Shown: positions 20,253 through 28,634 of the stretch, one piece after another
Layout of the letters: each line of letters opens with the position of its first letter
How positions within the stretch are numbered: the first letter of the stretch is position 1
Assembly: GCA_964632315.1 (NCBI GenBank)
Contig: CAZWEM010000049.1
Location: forward strand, 1-35,421
Reading direction: 5' to 3'
DNA from: an uncultured archaeon
GTDB lineage: Archaea > Asgardarchaeota > Lokiarchaeia > Sigyniarchaeales > SOKP01
Length of the DNA stretch: 35,421 bases
Program-made: the position numbers and the translations under genes
The notes under the pieces: generated by a model
Seen by the model: the letters and a program-made list of their open reading frames with translations, nothing else
Database searches by the model: none
What the model was told of the DNA's origin: nothing

Positions 20253-20573
20253 TTGATTGTAATATTTGTCGATGATATGGAAAACTTTCTAAATTTTTTA
20301 GATCGCCGAATTATGAATGAAATTTTTTATGAATTTAGAGAAGTATCAATAGATCATTCCGAAAATTTTTCTATTGAAATTATTCTTCATTTTCTTGCTA
20401 AATCTGAAGGATGTTTAATGTTGTATGAAACTAAACAGCTAATTACAAAATCATCCACAAGTCAACTAGATAAGCTGGTAATAGAAGCCCTGCAAGAAAT
20501 CTTTAAAAATGTTGATAATGCAATAAACCTTGTAAAAGGAAAAATTAGAGAAATATTTTTATCTTATTCTTGA
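20253..20573 (+). CDS. Hypothetical protein
   Basis: 106-aa ORF with TTG start 7 nt after the previous stop; overlaps the aIF-2 gamma stop convergently. Confidence 0.6.
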   Translation: MIVIFVDDMENFLNFLDRRIMNEIFYEFREVSIDHSENFSIEIILHFLAKSEGCLMLYETKQLITKSSTSQLDKLVIEALQEIFKNVDNAINLVKGKIREIFLSYS

Positions 20574-22126
20574 ACGACTACTTCTCCATAACCAATTAAG
20601 CGATATCTTCTATTAATAATTCTTGAAATGGCAAAGATGAAATTTTCAGGTACACATATTGGAGGATTTAAAGAAAGAACATAAGTATTTTTGAGTATTT
20701 TCGTAACGATACCAGCAGCTTTTTCTGTACCTACAACTAATAACAATTTTTCATTATGTCTTAATTCATGAACCTTAATTTGGTCTTCTGATCCAATAAC
20801 TCGATCTAGCAAATTGACTTTTAACTCTACTTCTGAAATTATAGGAGGTAATGATTCAGGACGTCCTACTAGTTGTCCAATCAAATGGTCTCCTTTAGTG
20901 ATAGCGGGGTCTAGTTCTGTTCCTAATCCAATCAATCCACCCGGTCTTGCATTATCTAGTACATTGCTTCCTTGACTAATACTGACAATTTTTGATTTAA
21001 TAGGTTGATAATCATTTTTCAGACGCAATCCTGGACGAATTTCTATCTTCTCTCCAATTTTTATCGTTCCTTTTAAGACAGACCCTCCAATAACGCCTCC
21101 CTTTAAGTTTTCTATTACTGTACCAGGTCGGTTAATATCAAAAGAACGGGCGATTAAAAATTGAAAATCATCGTTTTCATCTAATTCGGGTGTGGGAATA
21201 ATTTCTTCGAATGCACGGACTACTAATTCGATGTTTGCCCCAAAGACAGCTGAAATTGGAATGATTGGAGCTTTTTCTGCAACAGTTCCTTTAACAAATT
21301 CTTTTATTTGCCGGTAATTTTCTTGAGCTTGTTCTTTTGACACTGCATCTATCTTATTTTGAATTATGATCAAATTTTCAATACCTGCGATGTTTAGAGC
21401 GGCCAAATGTTCCCTTGTTTGAGGCTGGGGACATTCCTCATCTGCAGCAACCAATAGACATGCTCCATTCATCAAGGATGCACCGCTTAACATTGTTGCC
21501 ATTAAAATTTCATGTCCTGGTGCATCTACGAAAGAAATATTTCTTTTAAACTCTAAGTTATCTCCACATTTTCCACATATATCTCTTGGTTTTCCCTTCT
21601 GTCTAGCTTTTTCAGCCATATAATATGTTAAATATTCATCGCAAGAAGGACAGTATAAAATTGAAGCATTTGAATAACCGAGCTTTATTGAAATCCCTCT
21701 TTCCTTTTCTTCCGAGTGCCTATCCGTCCAATCACCAGTCAGAGCTTTTACCAAGGTGGTTTTTCCATGATCAACATGTCCAACTAATCCAATATTGCAT
21801 TCTGCTTGTTTTTTAATCAATTCCTTAAGTTTTGATTTTTGACTAACTTTTGGTTTTTCTTCTTCACTACCACTAGAATCCGTCCTAATTTCGGTTTTTT
21901 GCTTACTGGAATCAACTTTTTTTGATCCTTTAAACTCATCTACAATCTTTTTAGCACTTTCTATGTACTTTTCTGCTGATGAGCTTCCAATTCCTTTTAT
22001 ATTAAGATCTAGTAATTCTTTTTTTGAAATTTCGGCTAATTTCTCTATTGTGTCAAATCCAGCATTTCTTAATCTTTCTGCAGTAGCTTTTCCTATGCCC
22101 GTAATATCTTCTAAATCTTTTGCCAT
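20564..22126 (-). CDS. eif2g: Translation initiation factor aIF-2 gamma with N-terminal HhH extension
   Basis: NIGLVGHVDHGKTT, RGISIKLGY, zinc knuckle CPSC...CGKC, DAPGHE, QTREH, NKID, RSFDINRPG, RLIGYG; ~106-aa N-terminal addition. Confidence 0.95.
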   Translation of the reverse strand: MAKDLEDITGIGKATAERLRNAGFDTIEKLAEISKKELLDLNIKGIGSSSAEKYIESAKKIVDEFKGSKKVDSSKQKTEIRTDSSGSEEEKPKVSQKSKLKELIKKQAECNIGLVGHVDHGKTTLVKALTGDWTDRHSEEKERGISIKLGYSNASILYCPSCDEYLTYYMAEKARQKGKPRDICGKCGDNLEFKRNISFVDAPGHEILMATMLSGASLMNGACLLVAADEECPQPQTREHLAALNIAGIENLIIIQNKIDAVSKEQAQENYRQIKEFVKGTVAEKAPIIPISAVFGANIELVVRAFEEIIPTPELDENDDFQFLIARSFDINRPGTVIENLKGGVIGGSVLKGTIKIGEKIEIRPGLRLKNDYQPIKSKIVSISQGSNVLDNARPGGLIGLGTELDPAITKGDHLIGQLVGRPESLPPIISEVELKVNLLDRVIGSEDQIKVHELRHNEKLLLVVGTEKAAGIVTKILKNTYVLSLNPPICVPENFIFAISRIINRRYRLIGYGEVVVQE

Positions 22127-22238
22127 GATCAATTAAAATTAATATATTTTTTACAAGAATCTTCTTATTTACTTAATCTTTAATGAAAAATATAGATTTA
22201 CTTTTTTTAGTTTTATTAAGTTAGGAAATGAAGAATCC

Positions 22239-22586: not shown

Positions 22587-24758
22587 TTGATTTGGATGGT
22601 TAAGAAAAGATATATTCAAGTGGGGATGCTTCTATTTCTGATATCACCAATAATATTAACTTATTCTATTAACCTTCAAAATCAAGTTTTTACCCCGAAT
22701 GGGAAAGACCCTAATATAGCGCCCACTGAAGCGCAACTTAATATAGATTCATCAATGATTCCGATGTTTGATAATTCTTCACTTAATTCACTTTGGGAGA
22801 ATTCCAATATTGAAATGTTAATTATATCACCCGATAACTCTAATTTCATAAACGAATTGATACCTTTAGCCGATTGGAAAAATAGTAAAGGTGTAAAAAC
22901 CATAATACTTAGCAATTATTCTTCTTATCAAGGTAATGATGATGCAGAAAGAATTAGGCATATGATCAAGGATTATTACGAAAAGTATAAAATTCGGTGG
23001 GTCTTATTAGCTGGAGATACCGATATCATTCCTATCAGATACGTTTATAATCCAGATGTGGTAGTTGTAGGGGAAGGAGAATCAGAATATTCAAGTTGGG
23101 ACGATGTATACAAACCCACTGATTTTTATTATGCATCTCTTGGAGGAACATGGGATCAAGATGGAGATGGAATCTACGGAGAAAGCCCTGTTTATAATGC
23201 GAATGGAAAAGATGAGATTGATTGGACTCCCGAAGTTTATGTGGGCAGATTTCCTGCAAGCAATGCTATTGAACTTCAGATAATGGTGAATAAAACTTTG
23301 AAATATGAATCCAATCCGTACATGGGAACTTGGATGAACCGAATGCTTTTAGCTGGAGGAATTTCTTCATATTTTCCAGCTGAAGATGAAGCGCGATTAA
23401 CACAATTTATTTGGCAGAATTATACACTTGATAATATGCGTTTTACACACTTGGCGAGAAATACCTCCAGTTTTTATCTGGTAGATCCTCCATCGCCCAA
23501 TAATCTAAGCGTTTTGGATCAATCATCATTTACGAATGAATTTAATAAAGGATATTCAACCGTTATTATAGCAGGACATGCAGATCCAACGATTATCAAT
23601 GATGCGAGTGGCACGACTTTTTTTACGAACATGAATGCACTTAATACTGTCAATTATAACATGCCATCCTTATTTTATGCAGATGCGTGCACTACATCTT
23701 CCTATGATATGGGAGATAATAGTATAGGAGAACGAATGATTAAACGACAAGATGCTGGAGCGATAGGTTATATTGGAGGTTTACGCGTTACTTGGTATTT
23801 GGATAATGATACCAATCTGGAAAAACTCAATCGAGCTAATGCAAAGCTCTTTTGGCAACAATTTTTTGAAGAAAAAAAGTATCAACAAGGAAAAGCATTA
23901 TATGACTCGAAAGTGGCGTACATGAATAGTGACTATTTCACTCAGGAAACTTCTATTGAATATGAATGGCAGAGAAAAAACATCTTATCCTACAATCTCC
24001 TAGGTGATCCAGAGGTAGATATCTATACAGATAGTCCAATAAGGGCTTCTGATAGTTTTCCAAAAGATATTTACGGGGGACAGATTGTAAATTTTACAAT
24101 ATATGATATTAAAGATAATGTTGTGCCTTATGCTCGTGTGAATTTAATTTCAGCTGATGGAAAATATTTTACAGCATACGCAAATGAACAAGGAAATGTT
24201 ATATTTCGCATTCCTTCCATACCATATGAAAATTATAACATCACGATCACAGGACATAACCTTAAACCAACGTATTTTAATTGTACAACCCTTAAAGATA
24301 CTACAGTTCCAGAAATGATGAATTTGGAGCCAATTCCAACAAAATTAACTGTATTTGATAATGTTCGATTTAAAGTTGAAACAAGGGATAACCAATCTGG
24401 AATCGAAAGCGCGTTTATATTACTTTCAAATGACAATTTCAAGACCTACAGAATATATAGAGAAACTAATTCGATTCTTGAAAATGCTTCTAATTTTACT
24501 ATAAATATTGATAAATTGGATCCTGGAAATTATAGATATGCGGTGCTATTAAGAGATTATAGTAATAATACTAAATTATATTTTGAAACTTCATATCAAT
24601 TTAACATAGAGATACCAATTTCAATGATTATTCTTATAATAATTTCTATCGTTGTAGTTGGATTAGTTGGGCTGATCATTCTTAATCATTTTTTCAAATT
24701 TAGAACAAGAAAAAATAAATCAAGCTTGGATTATCCTTCAGAGAATTATACCATTTAA
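22587..24758 (+). CDS. Peptidase C25 (gingipain-family) cysteine protease, membrane-anchored
   Basis: WKNSKG, VLLAGD, TDFYYA, VGRFP, catalytic His (AGHA) and Cys (DACTTS), GAIGYIG, NLLGDP; N-terminal signal and C-terminal TM helix. Confidence 0.88.
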   Translation: MIWMVKKRYIQVGMLLFLISPIILTYSINLQNQVFTPNGKDPNIAPTEAQLNIDSSMIPMFDNSSLNSLWENSNIEMLIISPDNSNFINELIPLADWKNSKGVKTIILSNYSSYQGNDDAERIRHMIKDYYEKYKIRWVLLAGDTDIIPIRYVYNPDVVVVGEGESEYSSWDDVYKPTDFYYASLGGTWDQDGDGIYGESPVYNANGKDEIDWTPEVYVGRFPASNAIELQIMVNKTLKYESNPYMGTWMNRMLLAGGISSYFPAEDEARLTQFIWQNYTLDNMRFTHLARNTSSFYLVDPPSPNNLSVLDQSSFTNEFNKGYSTVIIAGHADPTIINDASGTTFFTNMNALNTVNYNMPSLFYADACTTSSYDMGDNSIGERMIKRQDAGAIGYIGGLRVTWYLDNDTNLEKLNRANAKLFWQQFFEEKKYQQGKALYDSKVAYMNSDYFTQETSIEYEWQRKNILSYNLLGDPEVDIYTDSPIRASDSFPKDIYGGQIVNFTIYDIKDNVVPYARVNLISADGKYFTAYANEQGNVIFRIPSIPYENYNITITGHNLKPTYFNCTTLKDTTVPEMMNLEPIPTKLTVFDNVRFKVETRDNQSGIESAFILLSNDNFKTYRIYRETNSILENASNFTINIDKLDPGNYRYAVLLRDYSNNTKLYFETSYQFNIEIPISMIILIIISIVVVGLVGLIILNHFFKFRTRKNKSSLDYPSENYTI

Positions 24759-24848: not shown

Positions 24849-24883
24849 GTAGCCAATCTTATCAAAAGGTGAGAAATGGTGAT

Positions 24884-25076
24884 TTTAACCACAAAAATTC
24901 CAAGCATTTCGCATAGCGCCGGAACCATCCGAACCCGGAAGTTAAACTTGGTGACGTTGAAAACAGTACTGCAATTAAGATTTGTGGGAATTTTCAAACT
25001 GTAAGTTTGCTTACGGTCATGGTTTCCAAGGAAAATACCCGGTCTCGCTATTTATACGGAAGTTTTTGTGGTTAAA
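24884..25076 (+). repeat. Inverted repeat forming the precursor processing stem around the permuted 5S rRNA
   Basis: TTTAACCACAAAAATTCC (24884-24901) pairs with GGAAgTTTTTGTGGTTAAA (25058-25076): 18 bp with one bulged G. Inner helix ATAGCG (24913-24918) pairs with CGCTAT (25046-25051). Confidence 0.88.
24925..25044 (+). rRNA. rrf: Circularly permuted 5S rRNA gene (3' part 24925-25005, UUUG linker 25006-25009, 5' part 25010-25044)
   Basis: Hallmark CCGAACCCGGAAGTTAA, loop E CAGTA/GAA and helices IV-V come first; the usual 5' segment CTTACGGTCATG...TACCCGGTC follows. All five 5S helices can be paired by hand. Exact ends are inferred from the processing motif. Confidence 0.88.
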
Positions 25077-25084
25077 GCGCGATA

Positions 25085-25127
25085 ATTTTGTTTTATTTAG
25101 ATTTAAACTGTTTTGATAATTTTTTTA
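25085..25127 (+). terminator. T-rich tract, possible terminator of the 5S precursor
   Basis: ATTTTGTTTTATTT...TTTTTTT just downstream of the processing stem; weak evidence in an AT-rich genome. Confidence 0.3.
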
Positions 25128-28112: not shown

Positions 28113-28634
28113 GTGCCCAAGAAGTTTATTTTAAAGATTTTGCTTGCCGGCGATGGTGGGGTCGGGAAAACTACTTTACTCCATAGATTCGTAGAGGGGA
28201 AGTTCAGTGCTGAGACTAAGATGACGATTGGCGTAGAATTTTTCTTAAAAGAAACACAAGTTGACGGACAACAATGTACTCTCCAATTATGGGATTTTGG
28301 TGGACAAGAACGGTTCAGATTTTTGCTCGAAAGTTATGTCCTCGGTGCTAAAGGGGCTTTATTACTATTTGATTTAACTCGACCGATGACCTTAGATAAC
28401 CTAGATCAATGGGTTGGAATCGTTCGCAAGAGCGATCCTAATTTACCTGTCATATTTTTAGGCACTAAGAATGATTTAACAGAAGAAATTATGATAAATG
28501 ACGAGTATGCCGAGATAATAAAAGATCAATTGAATCTAGTTGAATTTCTTAGAGTCTCCAGTAAAACAGGTGAAAATGTACAACAAGCGTTTGATCTCTT
28601 GTCAGAGACAATTTTAAGTCGTCAAAATTACTAA
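28113..28634 (+). CDS. Rab-like small GTPase (Ras superfamily)
   Basis: G1 GDGGVGKTT, TIGVEF, G3 WDFGGQERF, G4 GTKND, G5 SSK; no C-terminal Cys. Confidence 0.93.
   Translation: MPKKFILKILLAGDGGVGKTTLLHRFVEGKFSAETKMTIGVEFFLKETQVDGQQCTLQLWDFGGQERFRFLLESYVLGAKGALLLFDLTRPMTLDNLDQWVGIVRKSDPNLPVIFLGTKNDLTEEIMINDEYAEIIKDQLNLVEFLRVSSKTGENVQQAFDLLSETILSRQNY

What the first reader, a model, noticed from the sequence alone, without database searches (positions are those of the whole stretch)
24925..25044. Circularly permuted 5S rRNA gene in an Asgard-like archaeon
Seen in sequence: the two parts of a 5S rRNA are encoded in reverse order. The 3' part (24925-25005, CCAUCCGAACCCGGAAGUUAAACUUGGUGACGUUGAAAACAGUACUGCAAUUAAGAUUUGUGGGAAUUUUCAAACUGUAAG) precedes the 5' part (25010-25044, CUUACGGUCAUGGUUUCCAAGGAAAAUACCCGGUC). 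Helix I (ACUGUAAG/CUUACGGU, 8 bp), which normally carries the free ends, is closed by a UUUG tetraloop. The other elements also pair: helix II (GUUUCCAAG/CUUGGUGAC), helix III (AC-CCGG/CCGG-AA-GU with the canonical AA bulge), helix V (UUGAAAA/UUUUCAA), loop E (CAGUA/GAA) and helix IV (CUGCAA/UUGUGG). The gene is opened in loop C. Established precedents are permuted tRNA genes (Cyanidioschyzon, Thermofilum), the permuted circular SRP RNA of Thermoproteus and permuted organellar 5S rRNAs. I know of no described permuted 5S gene in Asgard archaea but cannot search the literature. Inference: standard annotation would miss this gene or call it partial.
Basis: partly seen in the sequence, partly recalled or inferred. 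Interest (0 to 1): 0.96.

Follow-up and report, generated by a model that had tools for sequence, protein, structure and literature searches.

The report
Back-to-front 5S rRNA gene, ring product
This Lokiarchaeia-type Asgard archaeon, like nearly all of its family, encodes its only 5S ribosomal RNA with the back part first, between tRNA-splicing-type cut signals, and environmental RNA contains exactly the predicted cut-and-rejoined 120-base ring, which explains why gene finders report no 5S here.

Summary
Observation confirmed and interpretation supported. Window 24925-25044 holds a complete 5S rRNA in rotated order: loop C to the natural 3' end (24925-25005), a UUUG tetraloop closing helix I (25006-25009), then the natural 5' end to loop C (25010-25044). 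It is the only 5S-like locus in a 99.5%-complete genome.

[quoted passage not shown] Cutting there by the standard rule yields exactly 24925-25044.

RNA contigs from three metatranscriptome runs (two studies) carry the joint 25044->24925 as 150-nt cyclic contigs. The DNA run does not.

The permuted gene occurs in 118 of 131 genomes of the family. It has at least three break points (loop C, helix III, loop B), and all predict the same ring. Helices and BHB covary. Some relatives also carry about 30-nt BHB introns.

Not shown: whether the ring itself is the ribosomal 5S (I put this at about 0.6) or is re-opened.

This scan has already noted the same phenomenon in at least 93 other Asgard genomes. 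I found no published report of a permuted or circular archaeal 5S. The closest known case is the permuted, circularised SRP RNA of Thermoproteus.

The parts
24850..24870 (+). Conserved upstream element (TAGCC..CTTATnAAAnGGT), a probable archaeal BRE/TATA promoter about 25 nt ahead of the leader stem
   Evidence: The motif is conserved at the same distance in relatives. Its promoter function is inferred, not tested.
24884..24901 (+). 5' strand of the outer processing stem (pairs with 25058-25076)
   Evidence: RNAcofold of the two flanks gives an 18-bp stem. An equivalent stem is present in relatives.
24904..24912 (+). Small leader side hairpin (GC-AUUUC-GC)
   Evidence: Fold. Similar hairpins are seen in relatives' leaders.
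24913..24918 (+). BHB outer helix h, 5' strand AUAGCG (pairs with 25046-25051)
   Evidence: In 54 distinct contexts the first three h pairs are kept 54/52/53 times with several pair types, against 14/3/4 in a shifted register.
24919..24922 (+). BHB central 4-bp helix H, 5' strand CCGG. It is a leader 'decoy' copy that pairs with 25039-25042.
   Evidence: H is paired in 54/54, 54/54, 54/54 and 51/54 contexts, with C-G, U-A and U-G variation at position 2.
24923..24925 (+). 5' bulge AAC. The predicted cut after the second bulge base makes 24925 the first base of the excised RNA.
   Evidence: The position follows the standard BHB rule (established knowledge). It agrees with the RNA joint at 24925.
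24925..25005 (+). 5S rRNA 3' portion: loop C (3' part), helix III 3' strand, helix II 3' strand, helix V/loop E/helix IV, helix I 3' strand
   Evidence: RF00001 5'-truncated hit, model 35-120, 32 bits. Covariation.
25006..25009 (+). UUUG tetraloop joining the natural 3' and 5' ends (closes helix I)
   Evidence: The loop is always 4 nt in 44 intron-less relatives: UUCG 25, UUUG 6, UACG 5, UUAG 4, CUCG 2, others 2.
25010..25044 (+). 5S rRNA 5' portion: helix I 5' strand, loop A, helix II 5' strand, loop B, helix III 5' strand, first bases of loop C
   Evidence: HMM positions 3-31 match here. Covariation of helices I and II.
25039..25045 (+). BHB H 3' strand CCGG (25039-25042, which is also the helix III 5' strand) and 3' bulge UCU (25043-25045). 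The predicted cut falls after 25044.
   Evidence: The RNA joint leaves from 25044.
25046..25051 (+). BHB outer helix h, 3' strand CGCUAU
25058..25076 (+). 3' strand of the outer processing stem
25086..25098 (+). T-runs after the stem (TTTTGTTTTATTT), a probable archaeal terminator
   Evidence: Read from the sequence. The function is inferred.

Best explanation
The locus is the organism's single 5S rRNA gene, circularly permuted. I propose the following pathway.

1. A roughly 190-nt precursor (about 24884-25080) is transcribed.
2. Leader and trailer pair into an 18-bp stem that presents a bulge-helix-bulge motif: outer helix AUAGCG/CGCUAU, central 4-bp helix CCGG/CCGG, and 3-nt bulges AAC and UCU.
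3. The tRNA-splicing endonuclease cuts in both bulges. The genome has two EndA paralogues, probably forming an alpha-beta heterotetramer.
4. RtcB ligase joins 25044 to 24925. This rebuilds loop C (..GGUC|CCAUCC..) and gives a covalently closed 120-nt RNA with the complete 5S fold, in which helix I is capped by a tetraloop.

Shown here: the permutation, the BHB geometry and its covariation, the presence of the enzymes, and the exact joint in RNA.

Inferred: that EndA and RtcB do the work, and that the ring itself, not a re-opened form, sits in the ribosome (my estimate is about 0.6).
For: Sole 5S. This is the only 5S-like locus in a 99.5%-complete genome. The family has no linear 5S over the Rfam cut-off (0 of 34). 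The sister family has normal linear genes at 54-68 bits.

Fold. Covariation supports the 5S fold in permuted order. After rotation, the sequences align collinearly with linear 5S genes.

BHB. The motif is conserved in 54 distinct contexts with compensatory changes in h and H, and the register is exact.

Break points. Three different break points all predict the same circle: loop C in the window and 11 other loci, helix III after the AA bulge in 59 loci, and loop B in another family. The junction predicted in one type is the contiguous sequence in the other.

RNA. RNA contigs from three runs of two studies join 25044 to 24925 as 150-nt (120+30) cyclic contigs with 0 mismatches. The DNA run lacks this joint.

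Enzymes. RtcB (568 bits) and two EndA genes are present.

Precedents. An engineered 5S with helix I closed by a 4-nt connector functions in E. coli ribosomes (PMC7283268). A permuted SRP RNA is restored by the same pathway in Thermoproteus (PMC4731332).
Against: The inner helix of the BHB (h') is weak or absent, so the motif is relaxed (hBH-like). In the whole-precursor MFE fold, the trailer CCGG pairs with the internal helix III strand instead of the leader copy.

Contigs cannot show RNA ends, abundance or strand. A re-opened mature form is therefore not excluded, and a head-to-tail multimer would give the same contig.

I could not run Infernal scoring of the re-ordered sequence against RF00001.

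No enzymology and no ribosome data exist for this lineage.
Confidence: 0.87

Rival explanations
1. The ring is only a processing intermediate. It is re-opened, most plausibly in or next to the helix I tetraloop, so that the ribosome carries a conventional linear 5S. This is how permuted tRNAs and circular pre-16S rRNA are handled.
For: Permuted tRNA genes and archaeal pre-16S/23S rRNAs pass through circles that are re-linearised (abstracts of PMC10515664, and PMC12918454). Contigs cannot show ends, so a linear majority form is not excluded. An earlier check in this scan priced the 'ring is the ribosomal 5S' reading at 35/100 (e1-1162836).
Against: There is no spacer to trim. The native ends are joined by exactly 4 nt in all 44 intron-less loci, mostly stable UNCG-type loops, which looks like a retained structural cap. 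No nuclease or recognition motif for re-opening is evident. A 4-nt cap on helix I is tolerated by ribosomes (PMC7283268). The Thermoproteus SRP RNA stays circular (PMC4731332), and circular 23S has been reported within archaeal ribosomes (PMC12918454).
Confidence: 0.3
2. The RNA is cut but not ligated. A linear permuted 5S with its ends in loop C would work as it is, as in some organellar permuted 5S rRNAs.
For: Permuted linear 5S rRNAs exist in organelles (PMC4267664). Helices II and III could hold the two ends together.
Against: RNA contigs from two studies carry the covalent joint 25044->24925. The break point moves between loop C, helix III and loop B among relatives while the predicted joined sequence stays constant. 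That constancy is expected only if the ends are sealed.
Confidence: 0.03
3. The locus is an assembly artefact or a decaying pseudogene, and the real 5S gene was not assembled.
For: rRNA genes are often missing from metagenome-assembled genomes. This genome has 119 contigs and 8.6% contamination.
Against: The same order is found in 118 of 131 family genomes, including single-contig ones. Compensatory substitutions keep every helix. DNA contigs of another run tile the locus. The RNA is present in metatranscriptomes.
Confidence: 0.01

Closest known systems
Permuted, circularised SRP RNA of Thermoproteus tenax (Plagens et al. 2015, eLife, PMC4731332)
   Same: It is a universal structured RNA encoded in rotated order. 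Its termini lie at a BHB-type site cut by the tRNA-splicing endonuclease. Ligation restores the functional fold as a circle, and the canonical gene is 'missing' from annotation.
   Different: It is a different RNA (SRP, not ribosomal) in a few Thermoproteus species. The present case spans a whole family of more than 100 species-level genomes, has several break points, and carries extra BHB introns. For the SRP RNA, cleavage and protein binding were shown experimentally. Here only the RNA joint is seen.
Circularly permuted tRNA genes (Cyanidioschyzon merolae; Thermofilum pendens). Known to me from the literature and cited within PMC4267664.
   Same: The 3' half is encoded before the 5' half. 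A BHB-like motif lies at the precursor ends, and processing goes through a circular intermediate made by the splicing machinery.
   Different: The tRNA circles are re-opened at the acceptor stem by RNase P/tRNase Z, which removes an intervening spacer. In the 5S gene only a 4-nt loop joins the native ends.
Permuted organellar 5S rRNAs (Valach et al. 2014, NAR, PMC4267664)
   Same: A 5S rRNA whose gene order is circularly permuted and which standard models miss.
   Different: These are organelle genomes, and the abstract describes no BHB/EndA pathway or circular product. They are evolutionarily unrelated events.
Circular pre-16S/23S rRNAs, circular or permuted mature 23S in archaea (PMC7758197; PMC12918454; bioRxiv 10.64898/2026.03.23.713588)
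   Same: BHB in a processing stem, cleavage attributed to EndA, ligation to a circle, and in some lineages a circular or permuted RNA within the ribosome.
   Different: Those genes are collinear, and circularisation joins the natural ends. PMC12918454 states that circularisation applies to 16S and 23S 'but not 5S rRNAs'. In the 5S gene the order itself is rotated, so ligation is needed to rebuild loop C.
Engineered cp5S rRNA in E. coli (Huang et al. 2020, PMC7283268)
   Same: The native 5S ends are linked by a 4-nt connector and the molecule is opened in loop C or D. The resulting ribosomes are functional.
   Different: It is artificial, fused into 23S rRNA, and not circular.

Membership tests
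5S rRNA (Rfam RF00001) | Three-way junction with helices I-V in the standard topology | tested here: met
   31 pairs are 94% paired, against 35-45% in slid controls, and 11 pairs show compensatory change. RNAalifold gives the same fold. After rotation the sequences align collinearly with linear 5S genes and give a standard consensus fold.
5S rRNA (Rfam RF00001) | Conserved loop sequences (loop C CCAUCCGAAC, loop E AGUA/GAA, loop A CAUNG, GUUAAAC) | tested here: met
   Rfam alignment with high posterior probabilities. HMM alignment.
5S rRNA (Rfam RF00001) | Score at or above the gathering cut-off (38 bits) as a collinear sequence | tested here: not met
   The native locus scores 22.9 bits and the 3' part alone 32.0 bits. 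This failure is the expected consequence of the permutation. The re-ordered sequence could not be given to Infernal. The sequence-only HMM gives a full-length 42-bit hit after re-ordering.
5S rRNA (Rfam RF00001) | Is the cell's 5S: no other copy, and incorporated in the large subunit | tested here: inconclusive
   No other 5S-like hit at E<=10 in the 99.5%-complete genome. Ribosome incorporation is not testable here.
BHB-processed permuted RNA genes (Thermoproteus SRP RNA type) | Gene order rotated so that the functional fold needs the transcript ends to be joined | tested here: met
BHB-processed permuted RNA genes (Thermoproteus SRP RNA type) | Bulge-helix-bulge at the ends: 4-bp central helix, two 3-nt bulges on opposite strands, flanking helices | tested here: met
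   The central helix, both 3-nt bulges and the outer helix are present and covary in 54 contexts. The inner helix is weak, so this is a relaxed (hBH-like) form.
BHB-processed permuted RNA genes (Thermoproteus SRP RNA type) | Junction of the two ends present in RNA but not in DNA | tested here: met
   The joint 25044->24925 is seen in RNA contigs of X18, X19 and X20 (two studies) and not in DNA run X1.
BHB-processed permuted RNA genes (Thermoproteus SRP RNA type) | Splicing endonuclease and RNA ligase encoded | tested here: met
   RtcB at 568 bits. Two EndA paralogues share 31% identity, and one lacks the catalytic His region.
BHB-processed permuted RNA genes (Thermoproteus SRP RNA type) | Cleavage by EndA at the predicted sites; stable circular mature RNA that binds its proteins | not testable with these tools
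   Needs in vitro cleavage, RNase R/northern analysis, or ribosome structures.
Permuted tRNA-type maturation (circle re-opened) | Intervening spacer between the native ends that is removed to give linear mature ends | tested here: not met
   Only a 4-nt loop joins the native ends in all 44 intron-less loci. Whether it is cut cannot be seen in contigs.

The most novel reading that the evidence does not exclude
The covalently closed 120-nt ring is itself the 5S rRNA of the ribosome in this large Lokiarchaeial family, and by this scan's other notes in further Asgard lineages. It would be the first natural end-less 5S rRNA. Because a ring has no ends, the gene's break point is free to drift (loop C, helix III, loop B), and BHB mini-introns can come and go in loop C and the helix IV loop. 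5S maturation would then depend entirely on the tRNA-splicing machinery.
Probability: 0.55. Interest if true: 0.92.

Novelty: new variant of a known kind. Interest (0 to 1): 0.86.

Why it matters
5S rRNA is universal, and its gene is assumed to be trivial to find. Yet 5S genes 'could not be predicted' in closed Asgard genomes (PMC8813620). This locus gives the reason for a whole Lokiarchaeial family: the gene is rotated and must be cut and re-joined.

It extends splicing-endonuclease/RtcB 'moonlighting' from tRNA and SRP RNA to a ribosomal RNA. That contradicts the current statement that archaeal rRNA circularisation concerns 16S and 23S but not 5S (PMC12918454).

It raises the testable possibility of a circular 5S inside the ribosomes of the closest prokaryotic relatives of eukaryotes.

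Practically, annotation pipelines need a permuted 5S model. Completeness standards for metagenome-assembled genomes that ask for a 5S gene penalise these genomes wrongly.

Tried and rejected
Rfam on the 5' part alone (25008-25044) gave nothing. At 37 nt with no internal pairs it is uninformative.

I could not give the re-ordered sequence to Infernal/Rfam, because the tools take only window or locus references. I used a sequence HMM in its place.

The family-specific model R1 found nothing outside the family at phylum scale. The model is narrow (effective sequence number about 1) and the filters were strict, so this is not evidence about other Asgard lineages.

A generic script to find BHB introns gave many false positives in this AT-rich RNA and missed the loop C introns. 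I kept only the hand-checked examples.

RNA contigs do not cover the leader or trailer. At most it is a weak hint that contigs of two studies stop where the DNA run continues.

The linear 5S hit in one genus member (G015 C263, 51.9 bits) looks bacterial in sequence. That genome also has the permuted gene. I treat the linear hit as a probable contaminant contig, but I did not test it further.

I considered how break points shift between types A and B, for example through reverse transcription of partly processed RNA, or duplication and loss around the three CCGG elements. I could not test either idea.

Full report
**Observation**

Window 24925-25044 reads, in order:
- loop C (3' part), helix III 3' strand with the AA bulge, GUUAAAC, helix II 3' strand, helix V, loop E, helix IV and helix I 3' strand (24925-25005);
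- a UUUG tetraloop (25006-25009);
- helix I 5' strand, loop A, helix II 5' strand, loop B, helix III 5' strand and the first bases of loop C (25010-25044).

Rfam finds nothing at gathering thresholds in the whole window. With relaxed thresholds, RF00001 matches 24896-25007 at 22.9 bits. Model positions about 27-120 are well aligned and the 5' part is forced onto unrelated leader sequence. The 3' part alone is a clean 5'-truncated match: 32.0 bits, E 1.4e-5, model 35-120. The 37-nt 5' part alone is too short to score.

I built a profile HMM from nine linear 5S genes of the sister family. The re-ordered sequence gives one full-length hit (42.0 bits, HMM 4-114). The native order gives HMM 35-115 (29.0 bits) followed downstream by HMM 3-31.

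**Is it the real 5S?**

The assembly is 4.45 Mb in 119 contigs and 99.5% complete. It has no other RF00001 match at E<=10. Titles of the closest public relatives name Promethearchaeota (Lokiarchaeia-type Asgard) MAGs.

In the window's genus, 38 of 42 genomes have the homologous locus at 70-89% identity. None has a credible linear 5S. The one hit over the cut-off, on G015 C263, has a bacterial-looking sequence, and that genome also has the permuted gene.

A covariance model of the shared core in native (permuted) order (A1/R1) finds full-length matches of 75-120 bits in 118 of 131 genomes of the family. These span 11 of the 12 family genera sampled and include single-contig genomes. There is one further match in a second family (57.7 bits). 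The sister family, whose members have ordinary linear 5S genes (54-68 bits, some in tandem), gives essentially nothing.

At phylum scale, several Asgard families have normal 5S genes (for example 37/37 in one family). This family has 0 of 34 over the cut-off, and many other families have none.

**Structure**

On 21 distinct sequences, the 31 pairs of the 5S fold written in permuted order are 94% paired, against 35-45% when partners are slid. Eleven pairs in helices I, II, IV and V show changes on both sides, against 2-5 in the controls. RNAalifold, given no structure, predicts the same three-way junction with helix I as a hairpin.

After computational rotation, 36 distinct family sequences align collinearly with the linear 5S genes of the sister family. 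The consensus fold is the standard one.

**How the ends are made**

Leader and trailer form an 18-bp stem (24884-24901 with 25058-25076). Inside it are a 6-bp helix AUAGCG/CGCUAU, a 3-nt bulge UCU on the trailer strand, a 4-bp helix CCGG/CCGG, and the unpaired bases AAC on the leader strand. This is the geometry of an archaeal bulge-helix-bulge (BHB) motif, with the bulge 3' of the central helix on each strand and a weak inner helix.

Cutting after the second bulge base is the standard rule (established knowledge). It releases exactly 24925-25044, and joining the ends writes ..ACCCGGUC|CCAUCCGAAC.., a normal loop C.

Across 71 loci (54 distinct contexts):
- the central helix is paired in 54, 54, 54 and 51 cases, with C-G, U-A and U-G variation;
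- the first three pairs of the outer helix are paired in 54, 52 and 53 cases, with G-C, C-G, A-U, U-A and wobble types;
- in a register shifted by one base, the outer helix is paired in only 14, 3 and 4 cases.

The genome encodes RtcB (568 bits) and two diverged EndA paralogues (31% identity). One lacks the catalytic His region. This suggests the alpha-beta heterotetramer type, one of the two types reported to cut non-canonical motifs (abstract of PMC5829648).

**Break points differ, the product does not**

- The window and 11 other loci are broken in loop C (type A).
- 59 loci are broken after the AA bulge of helix III (type B). They start at GUUAAAC and end at ..GGUCCCAUCCGAACCCGGAA.
- The genome of the second family is broken in loop B. 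Its central helix is CCGA/UCGG with AAA bulges, and a 7-nt loop caps helix I.

In each type the BHB-predicted junction reproduces the sequence that is contiguous in the other types. Predicted products are 119-123 nt in the 44 intron-less loci. Both types occur within single genera.

The loop that joins the native ends is always 4 nt in the family: UUCG 25, UUUG 6, UACG 5, UUAG 4, CUCG 2, others 2.

**Direct RNA evidence**

Of the public runs that share words with the locus, I laid three metatranscriptomes and one DNA run. Two of the metatranscriptomes come from one marine-sediment study and one from a salt-marsh study.

All three RNA runs have contigs that cover 24925-25044 and then 'go back 120' from 25044 to 24925. 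In two runs the contig is 150 nt (120 + k-1) with no mismatch, which is the signature of a cyclic path. The third run also holds a variant with 11 differences and the same joint.

The DNA run tiles the locus and its flanks in native order and has no such joint.

The contigs are continuous both across the DNA-encoded helix I loop and across the joint that is not encoded in DNA. The RNA is therefore a 120-nt circle, or formally a head-to-tail multimer. Contigs cannot show ends or abundance, so they do not tell whether the ring is the final form.

**Mature form**

Points in favour of a ring as the mature form:
- there is no spacer to trim, only a conserved 4-nt cap that is mostly UNCG-type;
- the break points drift;
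- the Thermoproteus SRP RNA stays circular (PMC4731332);
- circular 23S occurs within archaeal ribosomes (PMC12918454);
- a 4-nt connector on helix I is tolerated by E. coli ribosomes (PMC7283268).

Points in favour of re-opening: permuted tRNAs and pre-16S circles are re-linearised. An earlier check in this scan priced the ring-in-ribosome claim at 35/100.

I put the ring as mature form at about 0.55-0.6.

**Extras in relatives**

About 19 family genomes give 131-134-nt matches to the 103-position model. In L017 and L018 the extra 30 nt sit in the helix IV loop inside a canonical hBHBh' motif: H CUGC/GCAG, bulges AAA and AAU, inner helix AGUGC/GCACU. Splicing it yields exactly the intron-less sequence of L039.

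Other loci carry a 30-nt insert in loop C (for example L055-L057 and L060), with H UCCG/CGGG, bulges AAA and AAC, and a 9-position inner helix with one mismatch (8 bp). Its removal restores CAUCCGAACCCAG. Two loci have both inserts (181 nt). I checked these by hand only.

**Novelty**

Full-text searches found no report of a permuted or circular 5S rRNA in archaea. A 2026 paper states that circularisation concerns 16S and 23S 'but not 5S rRNAs'. A 2022 paper notes that 5S genes could not be predicted in closed Heimdall genomes.

This scan has already noted the same phenomenon on other DNA: 117 notes in at least 93 genomes, including Lokiarchaeia-type ones with introns. All claims in this report rest on my own tests.

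The mechanism is that of the Thermoproteus SRP RNA and permuted tRNA genes. Its use for a ribosomal RNA, family-wide and with shifting break points, is a new variant of that kind.

Noticed in passing
L017:1519-1651 (-), L018:1519-1651 (-); also about 19 family genomes with 131-134-nt model hits: There is a 29-30-nt insert in the helix IV loop of the permuted 5S gene with a canonical hBHBh' motif. Predicted splicing restores exactly the intron-less sequence of a close relative. This is a probable 5S rRNA mini-intron.
   Followed up: partly
L055, L056, L057, L060, L173, L174, L165, L169, L205, L207 (loop C region); L035/L036 carry a variant with an 11-nt direct repeat: There is a 30-nt insert in loop C, the most conserved 5S loop, with H UCCG/CGGG and 3-nt bulges. 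Its removal restores CAUCCGAACCC. Two loci (L191, L198) carry both inserts, giving a 181-nt pre-ring.
   Followed up: partly
L012:1340-1620 (-) (genome G026, another family of the order): This is a third break point. The gene is opened in loop B, helix III is an intact hairpin at the 5' end, and helix I is capped by a 7-nt loop. The BHB has H CCGA/UCGG and AAA bulges.
   Followed up: partly
Family-wide: Break-point types A (loop C) and B (helix III) are mixed within single genera. The shift moves a 16-nt segment (CCAUCCGAACCCGGAA) from one end of the gene to the other, while the flanking GCG-CYGG-AA / CGC stays the same. How this happens is unexplained.
   Followed up: no
L013:1480-1620 (+) (genome G031) and genomes G027, G029, G033: A fourth family of the order has neither a standard nor an R1-type 5S. 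One odd 28.6-bit 5S-like stretch is unresolved.
   Followed up: no
Phylum-wide: Many Asgard families have no RF00001 hit over the cut-off, and some have only 25-35-bit hits even in closed genomes. Others have normal linear 5S genes (37/37 and 7/7). The 5S gene layout is therefore lineage-specific across the phylum.
   Followed up: partly
L011:1501-1623 (+) (G015 contig 263): The only linear 5S over the cut-off in the genus has a bacterial-looking sequence. The same genome also has the permuted gene, so this is a probable contaminant contig.
   Followed up: partly
G032:C1:1399892-1400758 (L004, L029): A closed genome of the sister family carries three tandem linear 5S copies about 375 nt apart. 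This contrasts with the single permuted gene of this family.
   Followed up: no
window 20564-22132 (-): The eIF2-gamma homologue has an N-terminal helix-hairpin-helix domain (HHH_5, residues 5-62). The full length is conserved in relatives.
   Followed up: no
window 22587-24758 (+), 28113-28634 (+): A peptidase C25 (gingipain-type) protein lies directly upstream of the 5S gene. A Ras-family small GTPase lies downstream, which is typical Asgard content.
   Followed up: no
G113:C109:5288-5383, G020:C51:21554-21594, G093:C211:1-82: A few family genomes have a second, weaker or partial match to the permuted 5S model. These may be degenerate copies or contig-end fragments.
   Followed up: no
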